Part shown: one piece after another, positions 15,614 to 47,495 of the stretch
How the letters are laid out: each line of letters begins with the position of its first letter
How positions within the stretch are numbered: the stretch's first letter is position 1
Notes under the pieces: generated by a model
Told to the model about the DNA's origin: nothing
What the model saw: only the letters and a program-made list of their open reading frames with translations
The model's database searches: none
IMG/VR virus record: IMGVR_UViG_3300003177_000005
Location: 1 to 64,000 of that record
Strand: one strand, 5' to 3'
DNA from: a virus
DNA: 64,000 bases
Translations under genes and position numbers: made by a program

Positions 15614-15719
15614 TATCCATATATTATTTAAATAGTGACTGACATTACTATTAGTTGTCTTCTCTTAGAAAGATCCCGTAATCAGCAATGATTATCACAT
15701 TCTCATAATTTAAGGAGTT
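15614..15719 (+). promoter_or_regulatory. Early promoter plus structured 5' leader (copy 1)
   Basis: TATCCA-TATATTAT box; AATAGTGA-ctgaca-TTACTATT hairpin; GTTGTCT linker; GTAATCA-GCAA-TGATTAT hairpin; CATAATTTAAGGAG RBS. Confidence 0.7.
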
Positions 15720-16349
15720 ATGATGAGAAATTATTTTAGTTATGACCTTTGGGTCAATTTGTTAACAGGACTTATGGTGGGTTTAATGGTCCTACTAACC
15801 CAATATATTTTCCAGATTGGTAGCCACCATCTCGCAACAGTTTCTGGGTTAGATTTTATTAAAAACGTGGCTGGTATCCTAACCACCATACTCGTCTTTA
15901 ATCGATATGTAAGTTTAAGAGGTGTTGAGTTAAAAAAGGCAGTTTTAATAATGTTTGTATCAGAGTCTATTTATTTATTAATAGAAGGAATACTCATATA
16001 CCTAATACTAACTGAAAACGATGAAGTAAAATTATTAAAGTTGATGACTTTCATTACTATTTTAGGTATGGGTTTCCAACACTTAATGGCTGAGTTGCAT
16101 CGTCAGTTTAAAGACTACTTTATTAAAGATGTTCGTTATAAGGATTTTTTAACAATAATACGCCGCAAGACAGCTATTATACCAAAGTTAGTTGGAACGG
16201 CTACTACACTTTTTATGTATATTATGACAGAATATTATGAATTTCAAGCAATCGATTTCTTTCATATTTGTTGGGTTTTAACCATAATACTTGTTATTGG
16301 GTTACTGATTAACAATTGGAAACTTTATCGATGGTACAAGGGGATTTAA
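15720..16349 (+). CDS. Polytopic membrane protein, about 5-6 hydrophobic segments
   Basis: Hydrophobic stretches throughout; RBS AAGGAG at 15712 (start may be ATG 15723); followed by GGGGATTTAATCCCC hairpin and T-run. Confidence 0.75.
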   Translation: MMRNYFSYDLWVNLLTGLMVGLMVLLTQYIFQIGSHHLATVSGLDFIKNVAGILTTILVFNRYVSLRGVELKKAVLIMFVSESIYLLIEGILIYLILTENDEVKLLKLMTFITILGMGFQHLMAELHRQFKDYFIKDVRYKDFLTIIRRKTAIIPKLVGTATTLFMYIMTEYYEFQAIDFFHICWVLTIILVIGLLINNWKLYRWYKGI

Positions 16350-16386
16350 TCCCCTACTCCAACTTTCTTTTTTTTCATTAAAATTT

Positions 16387-16423
16387 TATCCATATATTAT
16401 TTAAATAGTGACTGATATCACTA
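16387..16423 (+). promoter_or_regulatory. Early promoter with 5' hairpin
   Basis: TATCCA-TATATTAT-TTAAA-TAGTGA-ctgata-TCACTA. Confidence 0.7.
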
Positions 16424-16443
16424 ATTAAAAAAAAGGTGTAAAA

Positions 16444-17361
16444 ATGAAAAAAATATTTGAGGTATGTGTATATCACGCATTTTGTAATGACGGACAAATG
16501 GCGGCTACTGTAGCTAAGAAGTACCATAATGAAAATGGTAAAGATTTAAAGTTAATAGAAGGCATTCATGGCAAAGATTTAGACCCTGAAGTATTTAGGG
16601 ACAAAAAAGTTCTTATGGTGGATTTTGCACCAAAAGAAGATAACCTTCTTGAAATTATTAAAGTGGCTAAGACAGTAACGATTATCGATCATCACGTTAC
16701 TGCTAAAGATATGTTAGATGGTCTAAATGAAGAAGATGTTAAAACCATCTTCGATAATGAAGAATCTGGTGCCACTTTAACCTGGCAATACTTCTATCCT
16801 AATACTAAAACACCCGAAATAGTTTTAGATGTAAAAGATAGAGATATTTGGGAGTGGAAAAGAAATAATACCAAATATACCACTGAAATATTATTTGCAA
16901 CTCCTTTTGTCTTAGAAGAGTGGTTATCGTTCTTATACGATAACCTAAAATTAAGAGATGAGAAGTACTTCCAGACAATTGAAGCTGGTAAAATTCTCTT
17001 AAAGAAAAAAGAATTTGAAGTGGAGAAAGCTATGAAGTTAGCATTCCCAGCCACCATTAATGTTAACGGCAATGTATTTAATGTAATCGTAAATAATGTC
17101 AGTAAAGACATCGAATCTGACCTTATGAACAGATTACTGATAGAAGATGTTGATAAAATCTATGACTTTGCTCTTAATATAAAGTTTAAAGGTAATGGCA
17201 AGATTAGTATGTCATTTAGAAGTACTAATGACAGAACTGATGTTTCTGAAATTGCTAAACAGTTTAATGGTGGTGGTCACAGAAATGCTAGTGGTGGTCT
17301 AACAACTATATCAGAACTATTTGTTATGAGTAGAGGTATTCTGGATAGTATGGATGGGTAG
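16444..17361 (+). CDS. DHH/DHHA1-family phosphoesterase
   Basis: YHAFCNDG, MVDF, IDHH, DRDIW, SFRS and GGGHRNASG motifs. Confidence 0.9.
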   Translation: MKKIFEVCVYHAFCNDGQMAATVAKKYHNENGKDLKLIEGIHGKDLDPEVFRDKKVLMVDFAPKEDNLLEIIKVAKTVTIIDHHVTAKDMLDGLNEEDVKTIFDNEESGATLTWQYFYPNTKTPEIVLDVKDRDIWEWKRNNTKYTTEILFATPFVLEEWLSFLYDNLKLRDEKYFQTIEAGKILLKKKEFEVEKAMKLAFPATINVNGNVFNVIVNNVSKDIESDLMNRLLIEDVDKIYDFALNIKFKGNGKISMSFRSTNDRTDVSEIAKQFNGGGHRNASGGLTTISELFVMSRGILDSMDG

Positions 17362-17392
17362 TCTTCGGACTACTTTCACCTTTCTTTTTTTT
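17358..17392 (+). terminator. Intrinsic terminator
   Basis: GTAGTC-TTCG-GACTAC stem with C(UUCG)G loop, followed by a T-rich tract. Confidence 0.75.
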
Positions 17393-17454
17393 CTAAACTA
17401 TAGTATTAACCACATTTTTATGATATATATAAAAATAATATAAAAAGGTATGGT

Positions 17455-18222
17455 ATGAGTAATTTAAAGATTATTTATAGTCAGGATATAATTAAAAATC
17501 CTGGAGAATTAAAATTCGACAAAGATGGTTATGCTTGGTTAAGAGTTGGTGGATATAATGTAATGAACAGTGCTGGTCAAAAATATGTTATAACTGATAA
17601 AGTTAGAGCCTTATATGCTGAAAACTCTGCTTTACAAAACCGTATTAAAAATGGACAACAATTTGGTGAGCACGGTCATCCAAAGTTAGTCCCTGGTATG
17701 TCTATTAAAGAATTTAGTAAAAGACTTTCAATCGTAGATGAAAATAACATAAGTACACATCACAAAGCTGTTAAACTAGTAGATCATCCTAATGGAGAGG
17801 TTGGAGTTTATAGTTTATTAAAAGGTCACGGTGTTCATGGTGATTTAATTAATAAAGCTCTTAGAGATAAGAATGTTAATGTCTCTTATTCAGTTAGAAG
17901 TCTAAGTATGGGACAAGTAGTTAATGGTGTACTACATAAAGAGGTTTATCATATTAATACTTGGGATGATGTGACAGCACCTGGTATTAAAGGAGCTGAT
18001 AAGTTTAGTACTATACGAGAGGGGTTAGTTAGTGTTGATATGGAAAGTAGAGACTTTTTAACTTTCGACGCAGAGAGTAAAGCTGATAAAGCAATCGTTA
18101 TGGATTTACTTCAAGAGTGTAAAGAAAGTTTTGATTTAGAATCTGAAACAGTACAGTTATTCACTACTATGTTAAGTATGTTTAGATGTGATGATAATAG
18201 TTGTAAATTTTATAATTGGTAA
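17455..18222 (+). CDS. Prohead maturation protease (phiKZ gp175-like, peptidase S80)
   Basis: GGYNVMNSAG, FGEHGHP, NISTHH, VSYSVRSL and TWDDVTAPGI motifs. Confidence 0.88.
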   Translation: MSNLKIIYSQDIIKNPGELKFDKDGYAWLRVGGYNVMNSAGQKYVITDKVRALYAENSALQNRIKNGQQFGEHGHPKLVPGMSIKEFSKRLSIVDENNISTHHKAVKLVDHPNGEVGVYSLLKGHGVHGDLINKALRDKNVNVSYSVRSLSMGQVVNGVLHKEVYHINTWDDVTAPGIKGADKFSTIREGLVSVDMESRDFLTFDAESKADKAIVMDLLQECKESFDLESETVQLFTTMLSMFRCDDNSCKFYNW

Positions 18223-18224
18223 AA

Positions 18225-18258
18225 ATACTAGTAAGGAGACAAGACTCCTTACTAGTAT
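18225..18258. terminator. 14-bp inverted repeat hairpin
   Basis: ATACTAGTAAGGAG-acaaga-CTCCTTACTAGTAT. Confidence 0.65.
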
Positions 18259-18387
18259 AACCCTTTTTACCGTTTAATATCACTGACTTTGTTATAACTC
18301 GTAAGTACAGTTGATATACTGTATTATAATTTAAAATCCACCATTTCTTTTTTTGTTTTAGTTGATAAGGCTAATTAAGGATATGAA

Positions 18388-20610
18388 ATGGCAGAGAGAT
18401 CAATACTTTATGATAAATTAAAATTGAATACAGAAACAGGTAATCATAACACTAAAAATTTAAGTTATGATGCTAAAGATAATATAGATGATAAATCTTG
18501 GGTTATAACAAGAATGTTAACACCTAATGGTGATCTAAATCCGACTGTTGCACGGAATAGATTCTATAACAATGCAATGAAAAAAATAGTTGACACATCT
18601 ATTGGTGGTCATATAGCTTTAAATCCTAGACCACAGTTTTGTCGTTACGCTGATCCCAGAGAGAAAGGTAGACTAGAATCAAGAGGAGAAGTAAGTCCTA
18701 GTAATGATACTCCTGGTTTAGGTATGGGTGAGTTTTATTCTAGAGCTTTTGATGATAACGCCCAACTACTTTTTTTACAGATGGGACTACCTGAATTTAC
18801 ATCTTTTATTAGCTGGTTAAAAAGAGCTGTATCAAGAGCTGAAGTCATAGTAGCACATAAAGGTTACTTACCTATGTCTTATAAGATAGGTAGAGTTATT
18901 GGTTCTTTAGGTGCTATAGCCTTTTTTGGTTTTGGTCGGTTCTTAGTTTTCTCGGCTTTACAATTTGGTATTAAATTCTTTGTAGGTAACGAAACAAATA
19001 AATACTATAAATTAAGACCAGAGATGGCACAGTTTTGGGGTAAAGCAAATGTTATATTAAATCAGATAGCTATTGAAAAAGGATTTACACCTTACTCTAT
19101 GGAAAAGAATCCTAATAAGAAGATAGGAGCTGCTTTAAGACCTGATAAAGATTTATTAGGATATATGAAAGAAGCTATGCCAGATATCATATCAGATGAA
19201 GGTAGAGTTGATATATATGCGATAGCTACTAGGTCACAAATATTAGCTAATGAAGTTATGAAATCTGAATATGAAAAATATGGTAATATAGATGGTAACA
19301 TAGATGATGTTCTAGGTTATACTAATATAAAATATAAAAAAGAGAAAGGACCATCTTTTCAAGATTGGTTTGAAAAATTAATACTTGGTGTTGATAACAA
19401 CGCTAGTAAGAAAAAAGAGACTGCTAAACCATTAGGTGTTGATGCAACTAGCGGATTGGGTGGTAGTCTGGGTGGTATAGGTTCTGCTATTGAAGGTATT
19501 ACAAGTACAGTCGCAAGTGTAACTGGTGCCATAAGTGATGTAAAAGCAGGTTTTGATGCTGTTCAAGATAGTACTAAATCTACTGATAGTAAAGATCCAA
19601 ATGAAGACCCTACTAATATACCTGATAGTGAGGGTAAATATTTAGCTAAAGCTGATGAAATAACAAGTACTTATATTGAACGGTTAAAGAAATATTTTAG
19701 ATCAACAGTACACGGTGGCGGTGGTTATTTAGCACTGCAAGTTGATTTAATAAAAGAGAGTAGTATAACTTTTAGTAATGAAGTTGGTAATATACCATTA
19801 GAATATAAACTAAATCAAATAGGTGGAGCTGCTTTAGATGCTCGATTCTCTTTATCCGATGGTAATATATTTGGTAATATGGTTAAGAGTGTTACTGACA
19901 CTATAGGTGAAACATTAAGTGGTGGTTTAGAAAGTATGACTTTTGGTTTAAGTAATATAGTTTATGCATTATTTGGTGGTGGTTATACTGAAATGGGTAA
20001 GATGTGGAAAAACAGTAGCGTTACATTTCCTCAATATACTTTTAGGATAGATTTGACTATGCCTTTTAACGAACCATTAGCAACGCTTTTATACCAAGAT
20101 AGTGTTATTGCAACTATATTAGCGGCGACTCTACCAACAGCTACTGGTAAAGCTACATTTACATCACCTATGTTAAGTTCTGCTTTCCTAAAAGGTCACC
20201 TTAATGGAACTAAAGGTATGATAACTAGTTTTACAATTAAACGAGGGGATTCTAATATAGGTTGGAATAGTGATAGACAAGCTCTTTCAACTGTATTAGA
20301 ATTTACTTATACCGACTTTACAGAACATTTAGCTGCTCCTGTTGTTATGAACGCTTTTGATATAGCTATAAATGATGAAGATAGTTTATCTAACTTCATA
20401 AGTACATTAGCTGGTAGATCTCTACACGAGAATAGATTTATATATCCAAAACTTATAATGAAATACTATAAAGCTAAGTATGGTGTTCAAGCAATGTTCT
20501 CACCTGCTTATCATAGTATGGCTCTATTTAATACCGTTGCTGTACCATTCCAAGCTGTTTTAGATTCTAACAATGTAGCGTATACAAATAACAGCCACAA
20601 GAACTATTAA
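18388..20610 (+). CDS. Conserved phiKZ-like virion structural protein (likely tail/baseplate)
   Basis: IGGHIALNPRPQFCRYADPR...GMGEFYSRAFDDN and C-terminal GMITSFTIKRG...GW resemble a conserved jumbo-phage virion family. Confidence 0.7.
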   Translation: MAERSILYDKLKLNTETGNHNTKNLSYDAKDNIDDKSWVITRMLTPNGDLNPTVARNRFYNNAMKKIVDTSIGGHIALNPRPQFCRYADPREKGRLESRGEVSPSNDTPGLGMGEFYSRAFDDNAQLLFLQMGLPEFTSFISWLKRAVSRAEVIVAHKGYLPMSYKIGRVIGSLGAIAFFGFGRFLVFSALQFGIKFFVGNETNKYYKLRPEMAQFWGKANVILNQIAIEKGFTPYSMEKNPNKKIGAALRPDKDLLGYMKEAMPDIISDEGRVDIYAIATRSQILANEVMKSEYEKYGNIDGNIDDVLGYTNIKYKKEKGPSFQDWFEKLILGVDNNASKKKETAKPLGVDATSGLGGSLGGIGSAIEGITSTVASVTGAISDVKAGFDAVQDSTKSTDSKDPNEDPTNIPDSEGKYLAKADEITSTYIERLKKYFRSTVHGGGGYLALQVDLIKESSITFSNEVGNIPLEYKLNQIGGAALDARFSLSDGNIFGNMVKSVTDTIGETLSGGLESMTFGLSNIVYALFGGGYTEMGKMWKNSSVTFPQYTFRIDLTMPFNEPLATLLYQDSVIATILAATLPTATGKATFTSPMLSSAFLKGHLNGTKGMITSFTIKRGDSNIGWNSDRQALSTVLEFTYTDFTEHLAAPVVMNAFDIAINDEDSLSNFISTLAGRSLHENRFIYPKLIMKYYKAKYGVQAMFSPAYHSMALFNTVAVPFQAVLDSNNVAYTNNSHKNY

Positions 20611-20623
20611 ACAATTAATTATG

Positions 20624-20656
20624 TACTTAGTAAGGAGATAATCTCCTTACCAAGTA
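20624..20656. terminator. Bidirectional terminator-like hairpin between convergent genes
   Basis: TACTTAGTAAGGAGAT-a-ATCTCCTTACCAAGTA. Confidence 0.65.
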
Positions 20657-21550
20657 TTAAACAGTATACAATAACCCATTATCTATGTCAGGTGCTTTAA
20701 ATGTATCTTCTTCAATAACTTGTTGCTTTCCTACTTTAACAAATTTTTCAAATACTTTTTTACTTTCACCTTTAAGTTTATATATTGGTTTCTCTTTATT
20801 TTTATCCATCTTACTCATTATACCTAATAAAGTATTATACCCATCTAAACTAATTTCCGCTTTACTATTATCTAAAAACTTAACTAAACTATTTTTAGGA
20901 TCTCTATCATAACGGCTTATTAAAGGGAATACTTCTTTTTCGTCTAATTGTTTTAATGTCTTAATGGGTTTTTTACTTTTACCTTTTCTTAATAAAGTAG
21001 GAGCTTGTTTAGCAATCTCTGTTTTCTTAAAACTCTTACCGAAAATAGTTTCTGCTGTATTAAAAGCATCAATATCACCAGAACATATTAAACCCAGTAA
21101 AATAGATGTTACTGCAAATTGTTCAACATTAGGTAACTCTATACCATATTGTTTATTAAAATCACTACTTAGATTTAAACAATCATTAACAAAAGTTTTT
21201 AACCATTTAACTTTATCCCATAGATTTATACCAAATAAACCTAAAGCAGCTGATAATAAATTGAATATCATTTCAGCTATTTTTTTCAATCCTAACTCAT
21301 CCAACCAAGCACTAAAATCAAATAGCTGTTTTAACTGGGCTAGAATTGATGAGATAAGGTTCTTAAACTTTGTTAGTAGTCTATCTATCATTCCTTTAAT
21401 ATCTGGCATTTTACCCTGTTTAACATAGTTCTTTGCCTCTTCTAATTCTGTAAAGAATCCTAGAGTAAAATCTTTATTCCCTATCTTCTTTAAATCTTGG
21501 AAATTTGGTTTATTTCCTTTACCTGTACCTTTACCACCAACGACTGCCAT
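20657..21550 (-). CDS. Hypothetical (probable virion) protein; lies on the MINUS strand
   Basis: The ORF track labels it +, but MAVVGGKG... is the reverse complement of sequence ending at 21550 (CGACTGCCAT), with an AAAAGGA RBS on the minus strand. Confidence 0.8.
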   Translation of the reverse strand: MAVVGGKGTGKGNKPNFQDLKKIGNKDFTLGFFTELEEAKNYVKQGKMPDIKGMIDRLLTKFKNLISSILAQLKQLFDFSAWLDELGLKKIAEMIFNLLSAALGLFGINLWDKVKWLKTFVNDCLNLSSDFNKQYGIELPNVEQFAVTSILLGLICSGDIDAFNTAETIFGKSFKKTEIAKQAPTLLRKGKSKKPIKTLKQLDEKEVFPLISRYDRDPKNSLVKFLDNSKAEISLDGYNTLLGIMSKMDKNKEKPIYKLKGESKKVFEKFVKVGKQQVIEEDTFKAPDIDNGLLYTV

Positions 21551-21654
21551 TCGTAAATCCTTTTAGTCTTAATTCTTCATTAAAATCATATTTTATTTAT
21601 CTCTATATTATTTAGTTGCCTAGTATATATTAAATTTTAAATCAGGAGTTAAAA

Positions 21655-22020
21655 ATGTCAGGAGTTAAAAAATCTCTATTCGTAGAGAAAGACTTTCAAG
21701 TTGAAGAGACAGATAATAACATTACTATTACTGTTAGTAAAGAACATTTTGAAAAAGCTGCACCTAAAGGTACAAGAGAAGCACTAGACTTTGTTAAGAA
21801 ATATGGTCAAGACTTTGTTAATGAAACTGCAAAACTTTATGAAGGTAAAGAAGAAAAGGAGTTATATGGTCAGTGTCATTTAGGGTATGAAGATGATGAT
21901 GTATTAGAAATTCAAACTATTAAAGATGAAGATAAAATCATTGTTGGTACACAGACTACACCAACATATATGACCTATGACCTTGGTCTTTTCTATAAAG
22001 AAGAAGATAAAGAAAAATAA
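21655..22020 (+). CDS. Acidic hypothetical protein behind an early-type promoter
   Basis: TATATTAT box at 21604; AGGAG RBS. Confidence 0.8.
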   Translation: MSGVKKSLFVEKDFQVEETDNNITITVSKEHFEKAAPKGTREALDFVKKYGQDFVNETAKLYEGKEEKELYGQCHLGYEDDDVLEIQTIKDEDKIIVGTQTTPTYMTYDLGLFYKEEDKEK

Positions 22021-22035
22021 GAACCAATATTAACT

Positions 22036-22069
22036 ACAGTACTATATGTCTTACGACATATAGTACTGT
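22036..22069. terminator. Bidirectional terminator hairpin
   Basis: ACAGTACTATATGTC-ttac-GACATATAGTACTGT 15-bp stem between convergent genes. Confidence 0.75.
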
Positions 22070-22098
22070 TAAAGAATATCTAACTTATCTTTTTTTTA

Positions 22099-25115: not shown

Positions 25116-25201
25116 AATTTTTCCTTTAATATTTAAATTTAAATTTCTTGAGTAGAATGAATCTACATCATTTAATGCGAAATTACATTTACTATCTATC
25201 G

Positions 25202-26965: not shown

Positions 26966-27062
26966 TTTTTTAATCCTTTTTTTATATTATTAATCATTCA
27001 ATATTATAAAAGTTAATTTCTAAAAACATTTATTGACTAATGATAAGAAGAAAAGGATTTTT

Positions 27063-35797: not shown

Positions 35798-35950
35798 ATA
35801 AACCCTTTCCAGTTGTATCAATCAAGATGTATTTTTTCCATTAAATGAAGTCTAAACACTCTAATAACAAACAGAATTAAAAAAATATATACTAAAGGGT
35901 TTAGAATTTAATAAACTATAAAGTTTAGGCTTCATCATTTTTTTCTCCTG

Positions 35951-36003
35951 ATGAGTACTTCCCAGATACTACCGTATTTTGGTAGTATCTGGGAAGTACT
36001 CAT
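35951..36003. repeat. 23-bp perfect inverted repeat with 7-nt spacer
   Basis: ATGAGTACTTCCCAGATACTACC-gtatttt-GGTAGTATCTGGGAAGTACTCAT. Confidence 0.9.
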
Positions 36004-36056
36004 AACTATTTTAAAAATATATAATTTAAATGTCAAATATAAACAAGGAGTTTTTT

Positions 36057-37596: not shown

Positions 37597-37694
37597 CTAT
37601 TAGTCGTTAAACCGACTAATGGTTTAAAAGCTTATCGTTTCTTTTTTTTTCTAATCTTTTGACCTATTAATGAATACTTAAAGAAAGGCATAAT

Positions 37695-40166: not shown

Positions 40167-40170
40167 AATC

Positions 40171-40220
40171 ATCCAACATATACCCTTATATAATTTAAGT
40201 AGTGATTAGTTATCGCTACT
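40171..40220 (+). promoter_or_regulatory. Early-type promoter with 5' hairpin upstream of PhuZ
   Basis: TATATAAT box then AAGTAGTGA-ttagtta-TCGCTACTT. Confidence 0.6.
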
Positions 40221-40251
40221 TAAAAAATAAACTTTTTCGAAAAGGATTAAA

Positions 40252-41328
40252 ATGTACAAAATTAAGGTTAACATCATAGGTTGTGGGGGAGCTGGTAGTA
40301 AACTAGTAGAGACATTCGCTAAATACTACGACTCTAAGTTAAAAAGTTTTGAGAGTGAAATCTCACCAATCGTTGTATTCAAGAAGTATGATTTAGATAC
40401 TAAAGAAGGAACTATCCCAACTACTGTTATTGAGTCGCCATTAAAGAATGGTCAAAAACTATATGGGTCTGGTGGTGAAAGAATTAGTAACTTCAAAGAG
40501 ATAAGAGATGCTGTTGCAAAGAATGCTAGTAAAATGGTTGAGGTTGAACCTACAACCATTAATATGGTAATATTTGGAACTGGTTCTGGTTCTGGAAGTG
40601 TTATTGGTCCAATAATTGCTGACCTAATAAAAAAGAGTGGTGGAACTGTTGTGGTTCTAGCTGTAGTAGATAGTTTTTCAAAGAAGAATACTATAGCTTC
40701 TATTGGAAGTCTTAAAACACTAGAAGGTTTAGCAGTTAAAAATAAATATGTTTTACCTGTTATGGCGTTTGAAAATATGCCAACAAAAGCCGAGTTGTTT
40801 ACAGTTAATAATATTGAAACTAATATAGAAAATGCTGATAACAAACTGTTAAGTAAGTTGTCTTTAATTTTACCATTCTTAACTAAACACGATGATTTAG
40901 AAGTTTCAGACTTATTATCACTGTTCAATCCTGAAAGAGGAAATAGTTTAAAAATTTCTAATGGAACAAAAAAATTAGATATAGCTTTAAATGGTGATTA
41001 CTATTTATCAGAAAATGTTGTTTCTGTTAAGTCTATAAGTCCTCTTGGTCATAACTATAGACCTAAGTTCCATAACCTATCTGACTTTAAAGTTGATAAG
41101 CCTAATAGTTATGCTAATGATATAATTAATCATTTCATTAGTAATACTAAAGACTCTAATGTTGCATTCCCATTAGAAATTATTTTAGCTGACCTTGGAT
41201 TTGGCGGCTTAGTTAGAACTCTGGAAGAAAAATTAGTAAACTTTAACGAAGCTGAACAAGCTCGTACAGATACTAATAATGCAATCGATATTGATTTAGA
41301 AGCAAGTGAAGATGGAATGTTTTTCTAA
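40252..41328 (+). CDS. phuZ: Phage tubulin PhuZ/TubZ
   Basis: GCGGAG, GSGG and GTGSGSGSVIGP tubulin signature; acidic C-terminal tail ending EDGMFF. Confidence 0.9.
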   Translation: MYKIKVNIIGCGGAGSKLVETFAKYYDSKLKSFESEISPIVVFKKYDLDTKEGTIPTTVIESPLKNGQKLYGSGGERISNFKEIRDAVAKNASKMVEVEPTTINMVIFGTGSGSGSVIGPIIADLIKKSGGTVVVLAVVDSFSKKNTIASIGSLKTLEGLAVKNKYVLPVMAFENMPTKAELFTVNNIETNIENADNKLLSKLSLILPFLTKHDDLEVSDLLSLFNPERGNSLKISNGTKKLDIALNGDYYLSENVVSVKSISPLGHNYRPKFHNLSDFKVDKPNSYANDIINHFISNTKDSNVAFPLEIILADLGFGGLVRTLEEKLVNFNEAEQARTDTNNAIDIDLEASEDGMFF

Positions 41329-41635
41329 ATCAGGTCAACAAAAGAAATGTAAGATGTTATTTTACGATGTGTTAGGTCCAAATGTTGGACCTGACATTAT
41401 CGAAAATAATATACTTTGTTTACTTAACGATGTTGATTTTTTTAATGTCTTAAAGAAGTCTTACATTGAAACGGATGCAATAGTTCATAACTTCATAGAA
41501 ACTGTAGTATCCATTATAATGGATACTTTTATAGCTAGGTTTACTAATGTGGATTTTAATTTTATAAACGTAAGAGTTAGTAAAAGAAGAAAATATATAT
41601 TAGTAGAAGTCTTTGCTTATTACATAGAGATTTAA
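41312..41635 (+). CDS. Hypothetical protein
   Basis: ORF overlapping the phuZ end; part of a tightly packed operon. Confidence 0.6.
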   Translation: MECFSKSGQQKKCKMLFYDVLGPNVGPDIIENNILCLLNDVDFFNVLKKSYIETDAIVHNFIETVVSIIMDTFIARFTNVDFNFINVRVSKRRKYILVEVFAYYIEI

Positions 41636-41646
41636 GGAGTATAAAA

Positions 41647-42249
41647 ATGCGTCTATTAAAAACACAAACTTATAATATTGATACTTTGGTAACTCTTATT
41701 AATGAAGTTTTAAGGCTAAATGATTTTCAAGATGTCCCTATAGACCAAGGTTTATTTATAGAACTTCGTAATGGTATTCCAAAGTATGTTGGGTATAAAG
41801 ATGATTTTAAAGAACCTGGGGTAATCTTTATAGACCGTAATAGTCAAAGGCAAATCTTTTTTAAAGCTAGACAAATACTAGTAGGTGAACTAAATAAATT
41901 CTTTTATTTTCAACATGAGTTTAAAGAATTATTCAATGTGGAACTTAAAAAAAATGAGATATCTAGAAATAATAAACTTCTACTAGAAGTAGTAGAAGAT
42001 CGACTTATTAAATTAGAACCACAACCTACATACATAGAAGAAGGTATACATGAGTTGGTAAAAGATTTCTATAATAAACTGTTAACTGATATACCAGAAT
42101 TGAAAACAAATTTTATTACTTTTAATGCTGACACTTATTTTCTAACTGTAAATGTTTATGAAAATTTAGCTAGTTATAGATTTAGGAAATATATGTCAAT
42201 CTTAAAAGAGGATGAGAAAGAATGTTACAAGTTACATACCCAGATTTAA
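41647..42249 (+). CDS. Hypothetical protein
   Basis: AAGGAG RBS; 200 aa. Confidence 0.75.
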   Translation: MRLLKTQTYNIDTLVTLINEVLRLNDFQDVPIDQGLFIELRNGIPKYVGYKDDFKEPGVIFIDRNSQRQIFFKARQILVGELNKFFYFQHEFKELFNVELKKNEISRNNKLLLEVVEDRLIKLEPQPTYIEEGIHELVKDFYNKLLTDIPELKTNFITFNADTYFLTVNVYENLASYRFRKYMSILKEDEKECYKLHTQI

Positions 42250-42653
42250 AAAAGCTGGTAGATGAATTTACAGTTGAAATAGAATGGGAAGAATATATAA
42301 ATAGTGATATACCAGATCTAAAAAGTATGGTTTTTGATTTAGAATATAGATATAAAGAACAAGAGTATAAGTCTTTTCATGTATTTAGGATTGGAAGACC
42401 TTATGAGATTAATAATGAAACATTTGTTACTTTAGCTAAACATCTTAAAGCTGGAAAACTTGATGAACGAAATCCTTTAGTTACGATACTTAAAGATTTA
42501 GTTAATAAGGACGGAAATGATATACTTGTGGAAAATGATTATTTCCTAAACAACTATCACAACTTATGTTGTCTTGCTACTGTTTTAACAGTTATAATAA
42601 GGGACGATAGTGTAGACATTAAAATAATAGAAAAAGGGGTAATAGGATGGTAG
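42222..42653 (+). CDS. Hypothetical protein
   Basis: Overlapping operon ORF. Confidence 0.7.
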   Translation: MLQVTYPDLKKLVDEFTVEIEWEEYINSDIPDLKSMVFDLEYRYKEQEYKSFHVFRIGRPYEINNETFVTLAKHLKAGKLDERNPLVTILKDLVNKDGNDILVENDYFLNNYHNLCCLATVLTVIIRDDSVDIKIIEKGVIGW

Positions 42654-43117
42654 GAACCAAGATAACTCTTATATCTCTAATAAGAGAATATAAGAATAGT
42701 CTTGAAAGTGTTATACTACTAGATAGTATCATATCGATACTCAATAATGGTATACACGAATTAGACTATCCCGATGAGGTTATAAATAGTCCTGATTACT
42801 TAACAGCTATGTTAAGTTCAGAAACTTTTTATTTAGAACTTAATGAACTAGTTAATAAAAAAGCCAACTTTTATGCTATAGAACATATAGTTATTAAAAA
42901 GGAAGTTTATATAAACTTAACATTAAAGATTTTATATGTTATAGCAGATGTTTTAAATGCTACACAGTTAAGTATAAAAAATTTAAAGAACATTTTTTTA
43001 CATAACTTAAATGGTGCACTAAAATTTCTAGAATACACAGAACTAACATTAAATGTTACAATACTTAAAGGAGTCTATTATGGAGAAAACTATCTACTGC
43101 CCGAAAAAGTTAACTAA
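42647..43117 (+). CDS. Hypothetical protein
   Basis: Overlapping operon ORF with AAGGGG RBS. Confidence 0.7.
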   Translation: MVGTKITLISLIREYKNSLESVILLDSIISILNNGIHELDYPDEVINSPDYLTAMLSSETFYLELNELVNKKANFYAIEHIVIKKEVYINLTLKILYVIADVLNATQLSIKNLKNIFLHNLNGALKFLEYTELTLNVTILKGVYYGENYLLPEKVN

Positions 43118-43307
43118 ACGGGAATTAAAAGCCTTAAATTATGGATTTACTCATCAAGACCCTATTATACTAGCCCAACTACCTAAGAATGCTTTAGAAG
43201 CTATGATAGAGATGGAAAGACATATGGATGATGATGAGTTAACACCAAAGGAAGGTGTCGACAAACCTATACGACAATTAGGTAAATTTTTAAGAGTTGA
43301 AATATGA
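43080..43307 (+). CDS. Hypothetical protein
   Basis: AAGGAG RBS favours ATG 43080. Confidence 0.65.
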   Translation: MEKTIYCPKKLTKRELKALNYGFTHQDPIILAQLPKNALEAMIEMERHMDDDELTPKEGVDKPIRQLGKFLRVEI

Positions 43308-43762
43308 GTGATGTTAAAGATTTATCATTTTATAAGACTCCAACATTAGATGGTATATGTGAAGTTTTTAACGAACTAACATATAATTTGGTTAAACAGT
43401 ATAAAAGAGAAGGATTAAGTAAAGAGGAATATAACTTTGAATATTACAAAGTAATAGATTATAGTTTTTGGACTTTTATAATTAATCTGGTTTCTGATTA
43501 CATTATTACTAATGATATACAATATGAAAATATAATAACCGATAACTTAAGATATGTAGCCAACTTACCACAAGAAGCTATAAGAGACATACATATATTT
43601 CTTTATGATAATAGAGAAGTTATTGAAAAGAATGCTACTGACTATGCATATCAAGTATATAATTATATATCTGAAGAAGAGTATGGTATAGAAGAGATAT
43701 TTACATCTTCGGTTGATCCTAAGACTATATCAGTCACAGTTGTATACTTTCCTGTTAATTGA
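43304..43762 (+). CDS. Hypothetical protein
   Basis: ATGA-coupled ORF. Confidence 0.7.
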   Translation: MSDVKDLSFYKTPTLDGICEVFNELTYNLVKQYKREGLSKEEYNFEYYKVIDYSFWTFIINLVSDYIITNDIQYENIITDNLRYVANLPQEAIRDIHIFLYDNREVIEKNATDYAYQVYNYISEEEYGIEEIFTSSVDPKTISVTVVYFPVN

Positions 43763-43784
43763 TAATGAAAAAAAGGAAAAATTA

Positions 43785-44165
43785 ATGTATGAGAATTTAG
43801 AATTGGATAAAACATATTCTATTAATTTAAAACCTAATAGTATTTTGGGTAATGAATTTTTAGGGGCTGTTTATCAAGGTGCTGTATCTTTAAGTAGTAT
43901 AAAAAATAGTATTAACCCAAATATAGACTCTATTATATCAGCGTTAAAAGAGGTTGATAATATAGATACTGTAAGTAAAACATTCTTAACCTTTAGAGTT
44001 AATGATGAAACATTAGCAGTTAATGTGGACTGGGTTAGTTCTGTTGAGACTAGTGATGACTCTTTGATTTTAACTTTCAATAGTATAACAGCTGAAGAAA
44101 AAGAACTAATACTTTTACAGATAAAAGAATTAGGATTCTATGGCGATAGGTTAACAATAAACTGA
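43785..44165 (+). CDS. Conserved phiKZ-like hypothetical protein (gp049-like)
   Basis: YSINLKPNSILGNEF...DWV...L.ELGF pattern; located beside polB as in phiKZ-like phages; AAAGGA RBS before ATG 43785. Confidence 0.6.
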   Translation: MYENLELDKTYSINLKPNSILGNEFLGAVYQGAVSLSSIKNSINPNIDSIISALKEVDNIDTVSKTFLTFRVNDETLAVNVDWVSSVETSDDSLILTFNSITAEEKELILLQIKELGFYGDRLTIN

Positions 44166-44195
44166 TATAGTAGATGCTAAACATCTACTATATCA
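44165..44195. terminator. Bidirectional hairpin between convergent genes
   Basis: GATATAGTAGATG-ctaaa-CATCTACTATATC. Confidence 0.65.
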
Positions 44196-44596
44196 AGTTC
44201 TATATTTAAATCTATTTTTTTTCTTATGTTTTCGGTTAGTGTCTTTAAACTCATATTGTTAGTAAAACAGAACTTAACCATTTTTAATCTTTTAACATTG
44301 TAATTACTTACTAAACTATTTAAACCATCTAGTGCCGAGTTGATTAATCTATAATCACAATTATCTGTTTCTTTTCTTTTATATGGCATAAAAATAATTC
44401 TATTATTACTAGTCTCAAAATAAACTGGTCTACCTATATCTAATTCAAAGCTTGAAACCGATTGATTAAATTTATAAGCTAATTCTGGATCTTTTGAAAA
44501 AAGTTCTCTTAATAATTCGGTATTAGGAAAACCTTCCATATCTATTGGTAAAACATAAATGGTATTCTCTTCTTTTTTAAACATCGTTGCACCCAC
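44177..44596 (-). CDS. Degenerate macrodomain-like protein
   Basis: Layout resembles Poa1p/DarG macro folds (..IIFMPYKR...DYRLINSALDGL...KRLKMVKF) but the GxG loops are missing. Confidence 0.45.
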   Translation of the reverse strand: MGATMFKKEENTIYVLPIDMEGFPNTELLRELFSKDPELAYKFNQSVSSFELDIGRPVYFETSNNRIIFMPYKRKETDNCDYRLINSALDGLNSLVSNYNVKRLKMVKFCFTNNMSLKTLTENIRKKIDLNIELDIVDV

Positions 44597-44761
44597 TCCT
44601 TAAGATTTCAATAAATAGAAAAAATGAATGTATTAGGTTATTTACAATACTTTTTAAATTCTTCGAAATTGTCAATTAATCTTTCTATATTATACTCTTA
44701 ATCTACTAATAACTTATACATTTTAAAAAATCTTTTTTAGTCGCTAAAATCATCAAAAAAA

Positions 44762-44902
44762 CATACATATATTATTAATATAGTGAATGACATCACTATA
44801 GTTGTCTTACTCTTAAGTAAGATTAGTTATACTGTGAAGTATAACACCCTGTCTTATGGTGGATTCCATACACCTAAGACGTAACCTTATAAGGAGGGAA
44901 TT
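44762..44902 (+). promoter_or_regulatory. Early promoter plus structured 5' leader (copy 2)
   Basis: TATATTAT 44768; hairpins at 44779-44800, 44805-44822, 44826-44845 (GTGA loop) and 44851-44880; AAGGAGG RBS. Confidence 0.8.
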
Positions 44903-45121
44903 ATGGAATTAACTAAAATTGAGCTACATAAGCTCATAAAGGCTGGGGAACACCTAGCCATAAACCTATTAATAAATAGATACGGCTATGATGCTTTCGT
45001 AGCCAGATACGGTAGGGAGATTGCGGGTCACCGCATCTCCCTTCGTGATGTGGGAGCTGAAGTTTACGAAGCTCACCACATCACTAAAGAGGTGGTTATT
45101 GAGCCTGTAGAGGCTCAATAA
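44903..45121 (+). CDS. 72-aa hypothetical protein encoded in a highly structured, GC-enriched RNA
   Basis: Strong RBS and open frame; at least six stems inside the ORF. Confidence 0.6.
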   Translation: MELTKIELHKLIKAGEHLAINLLINRYGYDAFVARYGREIAGHRISLRDVGAEVYEAHHITKEVVIEPVEAQ

Positions 45122-45158
45122 CTATCCTCGCCGTATCTTATTAACTATTTATTTTTTT

Positions 45159-47297
45159 TTATTCCCTACCATACATTTCTTTTATGGATAGTTTGTTCTG
45201 TCTAAATATACCTAATGTCTCTAAAATCATATAGTAACCTGCCATAGTAGTATCTAGTAGTTTACTATAATCAACAAAATCTTTTAACTCATCTGGTATA
45301 CCTATACTTTCGGCATATGTCATCGGTACTCTAAATTGTTTTAATTCCTTTTTATTATTAGCTCTAAGGAAATTATCAAGTCTATCTAGAAATATACTAT
45401 TACCTTTACCTTCTTCTTTAAATGTTTTTATAGTACTACTACTAAACTTCACAGTTGGTATTGTAACTACTTTATATTCTGGTTCAGGGGCATTACCGTA
45501 TTTTTTACTAAAAACACCATTCCATAATAGATGTTGAAAATATGTTGAATTTTTGACACCCTCACTATAAGCTTTAGCAGGTTTTATAGAACTTACTCTT
45601 AAAAAGTTATAATCAGCTTTTTGTACACGCTCTATTAGATATTCTTCCATATCTATAACTTTATTAATAACCTTATTTATATCTAAACTACTCTCTTGTT
45701 CTATAGATGTCAAGATATATTTCATAAGGTCTTTTTGTCCTTCTTTAATCTTTTCTGGGAATGCTCCACCCAATAAAGTAGGACCTTTAATCTCAGGTTT
45801 ATAAGAATCAAAAACAAACCCTTCCTTAATGTTTACCTTAGCGTAATAGTTTTTAGAAGCATATATAGCCATTAAAGGCCAGTAATACTCATTTTTCATC
45901 TTAAGTAAATCTCTTTTATCTGGTTGGACATTCATATTGGTAGCTAATGTTTTTAGGTTATGATCAATAGCTTGCGTTACAAATGTCATAATAATAGCCG
46001 AAACAGCTGTTGCATCTTTGGTAAACTTGATATCACCAAAATACCATTGTACCCAATCTTGATAAGTTCCACAAGTTGAATCAGTATCAGATAGTACTAT
46101 GGCATCTCTTACCATAAGTTTAGTGTCAGCAACATTAGGTGGTAAGATAACTGTTCTAAAGAATGTATCTATTAATAATTCTTGTTCTTCAATTTTCTTA
46201 TAGATATGTAAAGCTGTTGTAGCCAATTTATCTAACAATACCATATCTTCTATAGCATCAAATTTAACATCTTTACCTTTTACATCTTCAGATACAATAT
46301 GGAATAGTAAGTTAATGATAAATTCAGGCATATCCTTTAATAGCTTAACTTTATCTTCTCTACTTCCTTCTATACCAGAAACTGGTTTTATCATATCAGT
46401 TACTAGGGTCTTTAAAAAGGTTGGGTTAAATTCTCTAATATTATAAAGGTTATTAACATAAGCAATCGCTGCTCTTTCTACTGGGGTTAATTTCTTTATA
46501 TACTTAAGTATCTCCCAATCTTTTTCTCTATTTTGCCAATATTGATGAGCAGGTTCTAATAGTGATTTTGCTAATTCTTGATAAGTTGGTATTCTAAGAA
46601 CCAATTTATCTAATGTATATTTAACTTTATCCATATCTATAAATGTTATTATAGAAGTTATATAATCCATAACTAACTCTGGAGTTCTGAATATATAATT
46701 AGATGCCACCATAACTTCTGTTAATGCATTACCTATACCTGCAACACAACGAGTAACTGATGTTAATCCATAGTGAGCTGATGCGTTATAAAGAACATTA
46801 AATACTGATGCGTATGCTCCTGATAATGAGTTGTTTAAAATCTTCTTACTATTTTGATAACCATTATAAAAGTCATATAGTTCCATTTTCTTTTCAGCAT
46901 AAAACTTCTTAGCCTTTTGTTTCGCATCGTTTCTTTCAGCAACGTTTTTAAATGTATATGTAGCGTCTATACCAGCTTCTTTATTAGACGCTATATAAAC
47001 AGTCATAGATGGTGCTAAGGCATTACCCTCTTCAGACGCCTTTCTTAAATAACCTAAAAAATTCCCTCTTTTCTTTACTTTATCTTTTACTTCATTTCTC
47101 TCATAATATTCTATCTCTGGGTCTCTAAAACCGTGATCTTTTAATGCTTTTCTAATAATATATTTAGCTTCTTCACCTACTATTTCATAGCGAACTTCTA
47201 AAAACTTTTTATACATCTTAATCATATTACCTAATAGATCCAGATGTCGCTTATATTCATTCGATGGTAGGATAAAAGGGTTATTAAATTTAGACAT
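45159..47297 (-). CDS. polB: Family B DNA polymerase (phiKZ gp050-like)
   Basis: QNSKKILNNSLSGA, LTSVTR, LSDTDST and KMKNEYY motifs. Confidence 0.88.
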   Translation of the reverse strand: MSKFNNPFILPSNEYKRHLDLLGNMIKMYKKFLEVRYEIVGEEAKYIIRKALKDHGFRDPEIEYYERNEVKDKVKKRGNFLGYLRKASEEGNALAPSMTVYIASNKEAGIDATYTFKNVAERNDAKQKAKKFYAEKKMELYDFYNGYQNSKKILNNSLSGAYASVFNVLYNASAHYGLTSVTRCVAGIGNALTEVMVASNYIFRTPELVMDYITSIITFIDMDKVKYTLDKLVLRIPTYQELAKSLLEPAHQYWQNREKDWEILKYIKKLTPVERAAIAYVNNLYNIREFNPTFLKTLVTDMIKPVSGIEGSREDKVKLLKDMPEFIINLLFHIVSEDVKGKDVKFDAIEDMVLLDKLATTALHIYKKIEEQELLIDTFFRTVILPPNVADTKLMVRDAIVLSDTDSTCGTYQDWVQWYFGDIKFTKDATAVSAIIMTFVTQAIDHNLKTLATNMNVQPDKRDLLKMKNEYYWPLMAIYASKNYYAKVNIKEGFVFDSYKPEIKGPTLLGGAFPEKIKEGQKDLMKYILTSIEQESSLDINKVINKVIDMEEYLIERVQKADYNFLRVSSIKPAKAYSEGVKNSTYFQHLLWNGVFSKKYGNAPEPEYKVVTIPTVKFSSSTIKTFKEEGKGNSIFLDRLDNFLRANNKKELKQFRVPMTYAESIGIPDELKDFVDYSKLLDTTMAGYYMILETLGIFRQNKLSIKEMYGRE

Positions 47298-47360
47298 TTC
47301 TAACTCCTTATTATAATCAGTAAATAGTAAAATGTATAGTAAAATAAATCATTTCTTTTT

Positions 47361-47495
47361 TATCCATATATTATTAATATAGTGACTGACATCACTATAG
47401 CTGTCTCATTGTAGAGATTACTCTTATCGTGAGATAAGAGACTCTGTCTTATGGTGGATTCCATGCACCTAAGACATAATTTATAAGGAGTTATT
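47361..47495 (+). promoter_or_regulatory. Early promoter plus structured 5' leader (copy 3)
   Basis: TATCCA-TATATTAT; hairpins at 47378-47399, 47404-47417, 47421-47440 (GTGA loop) and 47445-47476; AAGGAG RBS. Confidence 0.8.

What the first reader, a model, noticed from the sequence alone, without database searches (positions are those of the whole stretch)
15631..47495. Candidate novel cis-regulatory RNA: three paralogous multi-hairpin leaders with co-varying stems and GNRA tetraloops
Seen: the leaders at 15631-15719, 44779-44902 and 47378-47495 share the order H1 (AGTGA/TCACT), G(T/C)TGTCT linker, H2, H3, (H4), TAA..TAAGGAG RBS. The H3 stems differ in sequence but all pair and close a GNRA loop: GTTATACT-GTGA-AGTATAAC, CTCTTATC-GTGA-GATAAGAG and GTAATCA-GCAA-TGATTAT. 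H2 also co-varies (TCTTACT/AGTAAGA vs TCTC/GAGA). H4 (CTGTCTTATGGTGGATTCCAT[A/G]CACCTAAGAC) is 31/32 identical in two copies and has two alternative inner pairings (GGTG/CACC or TATGG/CCATR). The downstream ORFs are unrelated. Each unit is a promoter-leader-ORF-terminator cassette oriented against its core-gene neighbours, and two of them flank polB. Inference: an undescribed phage leader RNA (translational enhancer or switch, protein-binding or export signal) that spreads as an expression cassette.
Basis: partly seen in the sequence, partly recalled or inferred. Interest (0 to 1): 0.82.

Follow-up and report, generated by a model that had tools for sequence, protein, structure and literature searches.

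The report
Structured leaders on jumbo-phage early genes
An uncultured giant phage puts the same early promoter and a folded, multi-hairpin RNA leader in front of several unrelated small genes, most likely to protect and tune its first messages; it is a real but modest new RNA motif known so far from one genome.

Summary
All three leaders are in the sequence as described. A fourth full copy lies outside the window (genome 70134-70249), and there are two truncated copies.

The repeated block upstream is not RNA. It matches the AR9/phiKZ-type early (virion RNA polymerase) promoter, TATCCATATATTATT-N5. By analogy with AR9, that puts +1 on the A of AGTGA, so H1 would be a hairpin at the very 5' end of the transcript.

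H3 shows strong covariation. All 8 pairs change on both sides, 31 of 32 cells pair, and every loop is GNRA. All four G·U pairs lie on the + strand.

No Rfam family matches. My covariance model finds exactly four full copies in this genome. It finds none in AR9, four other jumbo-phage records, 46 polB loci or two Campylobacterota MAGs.

A switch is not supported. The "terminator" and "mobile cassette" parts are unproven.

Best reading: a modular early-mRNA 5' UTR that shields the 5' end and blocks 5'-to-3' decay, possibly also a protein-binding site. There is no expression data and no close relative.

The scan noted the same kind of element before on other DNA (e1-5929691, e1-1962039).

The parts
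15614..15633 (+). Early (virion-RNAP type) promoter of copy 1: TATCCATATATTATT plus a 5-nt spacer.
   Evidence: 0 mismatches to the 15-mer consensus. Matches AR9 AAATATATATTAT-N6-+1 (PMC5312081).
15634..15649 (+). H1 of copy 1, 5'-terminal hairpin AGTGA-CTGACA-TTACT with one G·U pair.
15658..15673 (+). H2 of copy 1. Weak: 4-5 of 7 aligned pairs form.
15678..15695 (+). H3 of copy 1, 7-bp stem with GCAA (GNRA) loop.
15712..16349 (+). SD AAGGAG and 209-aa ORF with hydrophobic stretches by eye of its translation; no family found.
16387..16422 (+). Short form: same promoter plus H1 (AGTGA-CTGATA-TCACT), then directly the RBS of the DHH phosphoesterase gene (16444-17361).
   Evidence: Scores 38.4 bits with model R1. 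DHH assignment.
44762..44781 (+). Early promoter of copy 2.
   Evidence: 2 mismatches to the consensus.
44782..44797 (+). H1 of copy 2.
44805..44822 (+). H2 of copy 2, TCTTACT-CTTA-AGTAAGA.
44826..44845 (+). H3 of copy 2, 8 bp with GTGA loop.
44851..44880 (+). H4 of copy 2: outer stem GTCTTA/TAAGAC, inner stem GGTG/CACC.
44891..45121 (+). SD AAGGAGG and 72-aa ORF. Its 44% GC contrasts with 28% for the genome. No family found.
47361..47380 (+). Early promoter of copy 3.
   Evidence: 0 mismatches to the consensus.
47381..47396 (+). H1 of copy 3.
47404..47417 (+). H2 of copy 3, TCTC-ATTGTA-GAGA.
47421..47440 (+). H3 of copy 3, 8 bp with GTGA loop.
47446..47475 (+). H4 of copy 3. Differs from copy 2 at one base.
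47485..47975 (+). SD AAGGAG and 159-aa ORF; no family found.
45159..47297 (-). DNA polymerase B (context), flanked on both sides by opposite-strand cassettes 2 and 3.
   Evidence: phrog_2927, E = 3.3e-163. Homologues found.

Best explanation
Each unit is an early promoter of the AR9/phiKZ class, read by the phage's injected multisubunit RNA polymerase, followed by a modular structured 5' UTR.

Transcription is predicted to start at the A of AGTGA, so H1 pairs the very first nucleotides of the mRNA. I propose that H1 hides the 5' triphosphate end from RppH-type pyrophosphohydrolases and from 5'-end-dependent nucleases.

In four transcripts, the extra hairpins H2, H3 (GNRA-capped, always starting 41-45 nt from the predicted start) and H4 would act as further roadblocks and insulators. 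They would keep short, foreign-looking early ORFs stable and translatable from a strong, mostly exposed AAGGAG site.

Shown: the promoter match, the hairpins, their covariation and strand, and their restriction to this genome.

Inferred: the start site, transcription itself, and the stabilising role.

H4 is almost identical in two copies while the neighbouring stems have diverged, so H4 may also be a sequence-specific binding site.
For: - Promoter. TATCCATATATTATT-N5-AGT recurs 14 times on the + strand at 2 or fewer mismatches, and 2 times on the - strand. It matches AR9's AAATATATATTAT-(6N)-G+1, and phiKZ and phiR1-37 also start 6 nt downstream of their consensus (PMC5312081, passages).
- Phage polymerase genes are present: a beta-like gene at 9315-13325 and a beta'-like gene at genome 91792-93264.
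- A hairpin of 5 bp or more starts at +1 to +3 in 9 of 16 promoter sites, against 789 of 5000 random positions and 81 of 456 AGTRA positions.
- H1 covaries: AGTAAT/ATTACT at 73162 and AGTATA/TATACT at 52534. It has G·U on the + strand in copy 1.
- H3: 8 of 8 pairs are compensated and every loop is GNRA. It stays in the minimum-free-energy fold of all four copies at 55 C and of three at 37 C, where copy 1 takes a competing fold.
- Model R1 scores 153, 152, 131 and 92 bits for the four full copies. The next scores are 38 and 34 bits, for the truncated copies.
- 5'-terminal base pairing is an established mRNA stabiliser, and RppH needs unpaired 5' nucleotides (review PMC3997798, passages). A 5' UTR stem-loop stabilises vacA mRNA in H. 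pylori (PMC4843948, abstract).
- Host clade. The only two cellular NrdA relatives retrieved are Nautiliaceae and Campylobacteraceae MAGs at 40-43% identity. Both encode RNase J above the family cut-off, and RNase E/G was not detected in either (the MAGs are incomplete).
- Payload ORFs have no family. Two are GC-rich, at 44% and 41% against 28%, as expected for acquired accessory genes.
Against: - There are no RNA data. 0 of 5 sequencing runs listed are RNA, so the start site rests on analogy with phages whose polB is at most 31% identical.
- H1 is weak: about -3.7 kcal/mol for the 40-nt short-form leader, whose only predicted structure is H1. At 55 C its first five nucleotides are 41-78% unpaired. 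That matters if the host is a vent thermophile.
- The sequence of the H1 arms and loop is conserved more than structure alone needs.
- AR9's own early leaders are short and unstructured: 18 examined.
- 4 of the 14 + strand sites have no 5' hairpin of 5 bp. A fifth, 78527, has only a 4-bp H1. So a 5-bp hairpin is not obligatory.
- Copies 1 and 4 fold no better than shuffles overall.
- Near-identity of H4 in two copies is not explained by a passive roadblock.
- Only four paralogues from one genome were compared. They are not independent lineages, so the shuffle statistics overstate the significance.
Confidence: 0.5

Rival explanations
1. The leader is a binding platform for a specific phage or host RNA-binding protein. 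That protein would time, repress or localise a subset of immediate-early messages. H3's GNRA hairpin and the sequence-conserved H4 and UAGYUGUCU linker would be the recognition elements.
For: - Mosaic conservation. The H1, linker and H4 sequences are nearly invariant, while the H2 and H3 stems between them have been replaced with compensation.
- H4 differs at 1 base between copies 2 and 3, while 6 of 8 H3 pairs differ between the same two copies.
- The GNRA loop and its position (starting +41 to +45) are fixed.
- From sequence only: with the alternative TATGG/CCATR pairing, H4 presents a GGA in its loop about 30 nt upstream of the SD GGA. I recall that this resembles CsrA-type two-site targets; I did not test it.
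Against: - No candidate protein was identified.
- H4 is absent from copy 1 and different in copy 4.
- SD and AUG accessibility shows no common sequestration.
- Patchy gene conversion between paralogues could also give identical blocks.
Confidence: 0.22
2. The repeats matter mainly at the DNA level. A conserved promoter-leader module would provide homology for recombination that swaps or inserts accessory early genes, as PeSLs do in T4-type phages. The hairpins would then be ordinary leader structure.
For: - The same module heads unrelated ORFans, two of them GC-rich.
- Two cassettes sit on the opposite strand on both sides of polB. Opposite-strand neighbours on both sides were seen in only 2 of 40 relatives' polB loci (crude ORF call; 6 of the 46 loci were dropped for a partial polB).
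- PeSLs are repeated promoter/stem-loop motifs next to ORFans at exchange points (PMC4122927, passages; PMC2839356, search listing only).
- Assemblies break at the repeat.
Against:
- Recombination homology does not explain the compensatory changes, the fixed GNRA loop or the + strand G·U pairs.
- This reading concerns the element's evolution, so it is compatible with the best explanation rather than an alternative to it.
Confidence: 0.3
3. H1 and the linker form a DNA operator, or part of the promoter's initially transcribed region. They would be recognised as double-stranded DNA by the virion polymerase or by an early-shutoff repressor, and would not be an RNA element.
For: - AGTGA...TCACT lies at +1 to +16, a typical operator position. 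Its sequence, including the TGAYA loop, is conserved in 5 copies.
- AGT also follows the same promoter in other jumbo-phage records that have no hairpin.
Against: - H1 variants keep the pairing with changed sequence (73162, 52534, 40201), and with G·U pairs that would be A·C mismatches on the other strand.
- This reading says nothing about H2 to H4.
Confidence: 0.1
4. The leader is a ligand- or temperature-sensing switch, or a processive antitermination signal (boxB/put-like).
For: - Alternative inner pairings exist in H4.
- In copies 2 and 3 a possible closing helix joins AUAG(U/C)U to A(A/G)UUAU next to the start codon, with one compensatory change.
- From recall: GNRA-like loops are used by lambda boxB.
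Against: - The closing helix is absent from copies 1 and 4.
- Unpaired probability of the SD ranges from 0.27 to 0.93, and of the AUG from 0.02 to 0.66, with no common pattern.
- There is no Rfam riboswitch hit.
- Cassettes 2 and 3 are single short genes facing convergent genes, so antitermination has no obvious target.
Confidence: 0.05

Closest known systems
Early (virion RNA polymerase) promoters of AR9, phiKZ and phiR1-37 (Lavysh et al. 2017, PMC5312081)
   Same: An extended AT-rich consensus containing ATATATTAT with a purine start 6 nt downstream. It heads small early genes of a jumbo phage that encodes split multisubunit RNA polymerases.
   Different: In AR9, 18 early promoters examined lead into short, unstructured leaders starting GA/GT. 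Here most transcripts would begin with a hairpin, and four carry a 90-120 nt multi-hairpin leader. The start site here is inferred, not mapped.
5'-terminal stem-loop mRNA stabilisers (ompA and papA 5' UTRs in E. coli as cited in review PMC3997798; vacA 5' UTR stem-loop in H. pylori, PMC4843948)
   Same: A hairpin at or next to the first nucleotide of an mRNA, followed by further structure and a strong ribosome site.
   Different: No half-life data exist here. H1 is only 5 bp. The element is a repeated, paralogous module tied to one phage promoter class and carries a position-fixed GNRA hairpin.
PeSLs (promoter-early stem-loops) of T4-type phages (PMC4122927; PMC2839356)
   Same: A repeated, conserved promoter-plus-stem-loop motif in intergenic spaces next to ORFans, interspersed among core genes.
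   Different: PeSLs are described as composite terminator/promoter motifs built on sigma-70-type promoters. Here the promoter is of the jumbo-phage virion-polymerase type, and the hairpins lie downstream of the predicted start, in the 5' UTR. No recombination boundary could be examined.
5' UTR-derived small RNAs and structured leaders of jumbo phages (201phi2-1, PMC11512511; earlier scan finding e1-5929691)
   Same: Structured RNA directly behind a jumbo-phage promoter, absent from Rfam.
   Different: Those are single loci, conserved between phages or ended by premature termination. This one is a four-copy paralogous family within one genome, with no terminator before the ORF.

Membership tests
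AR9/phiKZ-type early (virion RNAP) promoter | Extended AT-rich consensus containing ATATATTAT. | tested here: met
   TATCCATATATTATT with 0-2 mismatches at all four long leaders and at the short forms. AR9 consensus taken from PMC5312081.
AR9/phiKZ-type early (virion RNAP) promoter | Transcription starts at a conserved purine 6 nt downstream of the motif. | not testable with these tools
   No RNA run holds the stretch. The A of AGTGA lies exactly 6 nt after TATATTAT.
AR9/phiKZ-type early (virion RNAP) promoter | The phage encodes multisubunit beta/beta'-like RNA polymerases. | tested here: met
   phrog_3148 RNA polymerase beta subunit, E = 9e-231, at 9315-13325. RNA_pol_Rpb1_2 domain at genome 91792-93264. 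Which subunit set is virion-borne was not determined.
Any Rfam 15 family | Score at or above the family's gathering threshold. | tested here: not met
   0 matches over the whole window. At E up to 5, three chance hits in 12 kb, none in a leader.
5'-terminal stem-loop mRNA stabiliser | Hairpin begins within about 0-2 nt of the 5' end. | tested here: inconclusive
   Met only if the predicted +1 is right. 9 of 16 promoter sites qualify, against 15.8% of random positions.
5'-terminal stem-loop mRNA stabiliser | Breaking the stem shortens the mRNA half-life. | not testable with these tools
   Needs an experiment.
PeSL (T4-type promoter-early stem-loop) | Composite of a terminator stem-loop and a sigma-70-like early promoter. 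| tested here: not met
   The promoter is of the AR9 type. Sigma-70-like sites are no more frequent than in shuffles: 27 against 25.7, and 21 against 21.5. The conserved hairpins lie after the predicted start, not before the promoter.
PeSL (T4-type promoter-early stem-loop) | Repeated next to variable ORFans, at indel or exchange points between close relatives. | tested here: inconclusive
   The ORFan association is met. Exchange points are untestable because no close relative could be fetched.
Riboswitch / translational switch | Conserved mutually exclusive folds, one of which sequesters the SD or start codon. | tested here: not met
   No common sequestration of SD or AUG at 37 or 55 C. The closing helix occurs only in copies 2 and 3.
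lambda-type nut site (boxA + boxB) | Conserved boxA, plus a short boxB stem with a GNRA-like pentaloop, ahead of terminators to be overridden. These features are recalled, not taken from a call. | tested here: not met
   H3 has 7-8 bp stems and 4-nt loops. No terminator or operon lies downstream of cassettes 2 and 3.

The most novel reading that the evidence does not exclude
The shared 5' end (H1 plus the UAGYUGUCU linker), and in a subset the H2-H4 module, may be an address tag for messages made by the injected polymerase. A phage factor would read it to move early transcripts out of the early-infection compartment, or to hand them to ribosomes.

How early mRNA leaves the EPI vesicle of nucleus-forming phages is an open question (review PMC12908238, passages).

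Caveat: whether this phage forms a nucleus is itself unsettled. Its chimallin candidate gives only E = 0.84 against PDB chimallin.
Probability: 0.06. Interest if true: 0.85.

Novelty: new member of a known kind. Interest (0 to 1): 0.4.

Why it matters
Jumbo phages with their own polymerases are poorly understood after the promoter step. Published transcript maps of phiKZ, AR9 and 201phi2-1, in the passages I read, report mostly short early leaders.

A paralogous leader family with clean compensatory changes has two uses:
- It is a ready-made natural mutagenesis series for testing how such phages stabilise or sort their first messages in an RNase J-type host.
- It could serve as a portable expression or insulator part.

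Its reach is limited. It is known from one uncultured, half-complete genome, and its function is inferred.

Tried and rejected
**Searches for relatives**
- Megablast of 44000-48500 against phages: no match.
- Distant blastn of leader 2 against phages: no match.
- 30-nt promoter/H1 pattern in viral contigs: 0 hits.
- Looser 20-nt pattern: 73 loci, none with the leader. A few are promoters of other jumbo phages.
- polB-related loci in viral contigs with the single protein: none.
- Metagenome scan: 7 loci, none with the linker or H3.
- Model R1 reached at most 25.4 bits in G001-G004 and found nothing in AR9. It reached at most 22.3 bits in two MAGs and at most 26.3 bits in 46 polB loci.

**Expression**
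- No RNA holder was listed among 5 runs.
- Laying contigs of 3 runs showed only assembly breaks at the repeat, and the paralogue aligning to leader 2.

**T7-like promoter idea** (TCACTATAG resembles T7/SP6, from recall)
- No PF00940 polymerase in the 119 kb. The control rang nowhere and the genome is 46% complete, so this is weak. I dropped the idea because the motif varies (TCACTGTAG, TTACTATTAG).

**AR9-type late promoter inside H1** (ACA-N6-TA)
- Not conserved among the H1 copies (GATA at 16407). By eye, late-gene upstream regions show no AACA motif.

**H4 derived from the DHH gene**
- A 14-mer of H4 recurs at 16611. Exact matches of 14 or more arise in 75.5% of 200 shuffle sets, so I treat it as chance.

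**Anti-leader pairing**
- The GC-rich non-coding stretch at genome 72.3-72.75 kb was tested against the leaders. Duplex energies lie within shuffles.

**General architecture in relatives**
- A GNRA hairpin within 130 nt of a TATATTAY site occurs in 1 of 24 sites in G007, 0 of 54 in G002 and 1 of 49 in G001, against 4 of 68 here.

**Other**
- No tRNA or tmRNA in the window.
- Supplementary tables of the AR9 paper (start sites) were not opened. They could refine the spacing rule.
- One wasted search: the literal TATATTAC in papers.

Full report
**What the window is**

The window is the first 64 kb of a 119,559-bp IMG/VR virus record. The record is rated 46% complete and has 28% G+C.

It encodes:
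- a split multisubunit RNA polymerase beta-like protein at 9315-13325 (phrog_3148, E = 9e-231);
- a phiKZ-group DNA polymerase B at 45159-47297, minus strand (phrog_2927, E = 3e-163);
- further along the record, a class I ribonucleotide reductase and a beta'-like polymerase fragment.

The nearest cultured polB is only 31% identical, among Bacillus, Pseudomonas and Vibrio jumbo phages. So this is a deep-branching, uncultured jumbo phage of the group that brings its own RNA polymerases.

Near-identical pieces occur in a hydrothermal-vent metagenome run. The only two cellular NrdA relatives retrieved are Nautiliaceae and Campylobacteraceae MAGs at 40-43% identity. This is a weak pointer to a Campylobacterota host.

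**Checking the observation**

The shared 22-nt stretch occurs 3 times in the window against none in 100 shuffles. A fourth full copy lies at genome 70134-70249, outside the window.

I aligned the four copies (A1) and wrote H1-H4 onto the alignment.
- 92.6% of 108 cells pair, against 75.2% after shuffling partners (0 of 500 shuffles reach it).
- 33-46% pair when partners are slid by 1-3 columns.
- H3 carries the signal. All 8 pairs show changes on both sides, 31 of 32 cells pair, and the loops are GTGA (three copies) and GCAA (one).
- H1 is invariant except for one G·U pair.
- H2 keeps a UCU/AGA base and varies above it.
- H4 is shared by copies 2 and 3 with one difference, is different in copy 4, and is absent from copy 1.

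The four G·U pairs (H1, H2 and H3 of copy 1; H3 of copy 4) are all on the + strand. On the other strand they would be A·C mismatches, so the constraint acts on a + strand RNA.

Caveats: the four sequences are paralogues from one genome, so the shuffle test overstates independence. Whole-leader folding energy is exceptional only for copies 2 and 3 (z = -3.9 and -3.3) and not for copies 1 and 4 (-0.22 and -0.76).

**What the conserved 5' block is**

The block upstream of H1, TATCCATATATTATT plus five bases, is not part of the RNA. It matches the early-promoter consensus of phage AR9, AAATATATATTAT-(6N)-G+1. The same paper states that phiKZ and phiR1-37 also start 6 nt downstream of their AT-rich consensus (PMC5312081, passages). 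Applied here, that spacing puts +1 on the A of AGTGA, the first nucleotide of H1.

With two or fewer mismatches the 15-mer occurs 16 times in the record, 14 of them on the + strand. Of the 16, 9 are followed by a hairpin of at least 5 bp starting at +1 to +3. The same is true of 15.8% of random positions and 17.8% of positions that merely begin AGTRA.

H1 variants keep the pairing with altered sequence: AGTAAT/ATTACT at 73162, AGTATA/TATACT at 52534, and AGTGAT/ATCGCT at 40201.

Two promoters lead straight from H1 to the ribosome site:
- 16387, heading a DHH phosphoesterase gene;
- 73142.

So H1 belongs to the early-transcript class as a whole. The long leader (linker, H2, H3, with or without H4) is an add-on found four times. 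A decayed version at 78521 has a 4-bp H1, TATAGGTGTCC and a small H2. A relic lies near 56180.

My covariance model R1 separates these cleanly:
- 153, 152, 131 and 92 bits for the four full copies;
- 38 and 34 bits for the truncated copies;
- under 23 bits for everything else.

**Is it known, and does it occur elsewhere?**

Rfam 15 gives nothing at gathering threshold over the window. It gives nothing in the leaders at E up to 5.

No copy was found in any of the following:
- GenBank phages;
- IMG/VR;
- JGI metagenomes;
- four other jumbo-phage records that share the promoter, plus AR9;
- 46 polB loci of distant relatives;
- two candidate host-clade MAGs.

AR9's own early leaders (18 read) are short and unstructured.

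A GNRA hairpin within 130 nt of a promoter-like site occurs 4 times here. All four start at +41 to +45, out of only 15 such hairpins in the genome. Three other records give 1 of 24, 0 of 54 and 1 of 49 sites.

All comparative evidence is therefore within one genome.

In the passages I read of the phiKZ, 201phi2-1 and AR9 transcriptome papers I found no description of such a leader. The 201phi2-1 paper does report 5' UTR-derived small RNAs. Two earlier reports of this scan describe the same kind of element in other phages.

**How it most likely works**

- Shown: the promoter match, the hairpins, their covariation and their strand.
- Inferred: that the virion polymerase starts at AGTGA.
- Inferred from established knowledge: 5'-terminal base pairing stabilises bacterial mRNAs, because RppH and 5'-end-dependent nucleases need unpaired 5' nucleotides (review PMC3997798, passages). 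In H. pylori a 5' UTR stem-loop lengthens the vacA mRNA half-life (PMC4843948, abstract).

Both candidate host-clade MAGs encode RNase J well above the family cut-off. Neither shows RNase E/G, though they are incomplete.

I therefore read H1 as a 5' cap hairpin. I read H2-H4 as additional stable roadblocks and insulators placed before a strong AAGGAG site. They sit in front of short ORFs that have no detectable family. Two of those ORFs are much richer in G+C than the phage, at 44% and 41% against 28%, as expected for acquired accessory genes that need a dependable expression context.

Evidence against this reading:
- H1 is only 5 bp, and is largely melted at 55 C in silico.
- H1 is conserved in sequence beyond what pairing needs.
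- A passive role does not explain why H4 differs at one base between two copies whose H3 stems differ at 6 of 8 pairs. That pattern suggests sequence-specific recognition, or patchy gene conversion.

**What is not supported**

- A switch. The unpaired probabilities of SD and AUG differ widely among copies, and a closing helix exists only in copies 2 and 3.
- Terminators at the cassette ends. The scan did not find them.
- The 'against its neighbours' layout for all copies. It holds for copies 2 and 3, which flank polB on the opposite strand. Opposite-strand neighbours on both sides were seen in 2 of 40 relatives by a crude ORF call. It does not hold for copy 1's downstream side or for copy 4.
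- Mobility. It cannot be judged without close relatives. The PeSL analogy (PMC4122927) fits the association with ORFans. It does not fit the promoter type or the position of the stem-loops.

**Verdict**

This is a real, strand-specific, covarying leader family attached to a known promoter class. It is a new member of the broad kind 'structured 5' UTR or 5' stabiliser'. It is known from one incomplete uncultured genome, and its function is untested.

Noticed in passing
Genome 70108-70252 (L003:1477-1621), outside the window: Fourth full copy of the promoter-leader. Its H2 is TCAAC/GTTGA, its H3 is GATATATT-GTGA-GATATATC, and its H4 differs from the others. It heads an 84-aa ORFan followed by an 88-aa ORF with 41% GC.
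   Followed up: yes
Window 15614-63871 and genome up to 78527, + strand: 14 of 16 matches to the early-promoter 15-mer lie on the + strand. Most predicted early transcripts begin with an AGTGA...TCACT-type hairpin, and variants keep the pairing.
   Followed up: yes
Whole record, ribosome sites: GGAG lies in the SD window of 8 of 12 genes behind early promoters (a ninth, at 15720, was missed by my window) against 31 of 118 other genes (Fisher p = 0.007). Many non-early genes use AAAGGA(A/T). This may be a class-specific SD flavour.
   Followed up: partly
L173:1857-2050 (record G007, polB 33% identical): A distant relative has a phiKZ-like promoter (TATATATTAC) followed by a 5'-terminal hairpin, a second hairpin, an 11-bp GAAA-capped hairpin and then a terminator. 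It looks like a small early RNA of about 160 nt with an architecture parallel to H1-H3. Model R1 scores it 26.3 bits, E = 0.04.
   Followed up: partly
L075:2176-2235 (record G001): Another jumbo-phage contig has the same promoter followed at +1 by a 12-13-bp hairpin that also opens AGTGA and closes TCACT.
   Followed up: no
Window 44903-45121: The 72-codon ORF behind leader 2 has 44% GC in a 28% GC genome. Another first-reader note says it folds extensively. It could be a recent acquisition, or partly a structured RNA.
   Followed up: no
Genome 72300-72760: A GC-rich stretch lacking a convincing ORF, with G-runs, lies behind a weak early-promoter copy (noted by another reader). I tested only whether it can pair with the leaders, and it cannot beyond chance.
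   Followed up: partly
Genome 89929-91713 (L146:5930-7714): A 594-aa ORF lies directly upstream of the beta'-like polymerase gene. Its only PDB sequence hit is chimallin, at E = 0.84 and collinear. There is no PHROG match. Whether the phage forms a nucleus is unsettled.
   Followed up: partly
Window 16611-16650: A 14-mer of H4 (plus TGCACC and AAGA) recurs inside the DHH phosphoesterase ORF. Shuffles give matches this long in 75.5% of trials, so it is probably chance.
   Followed up: yes
Window 3-7586, minus strand: An ORF of more than 2528 aa runs off the start of the window. I did not characterise it.
   Followed up: no
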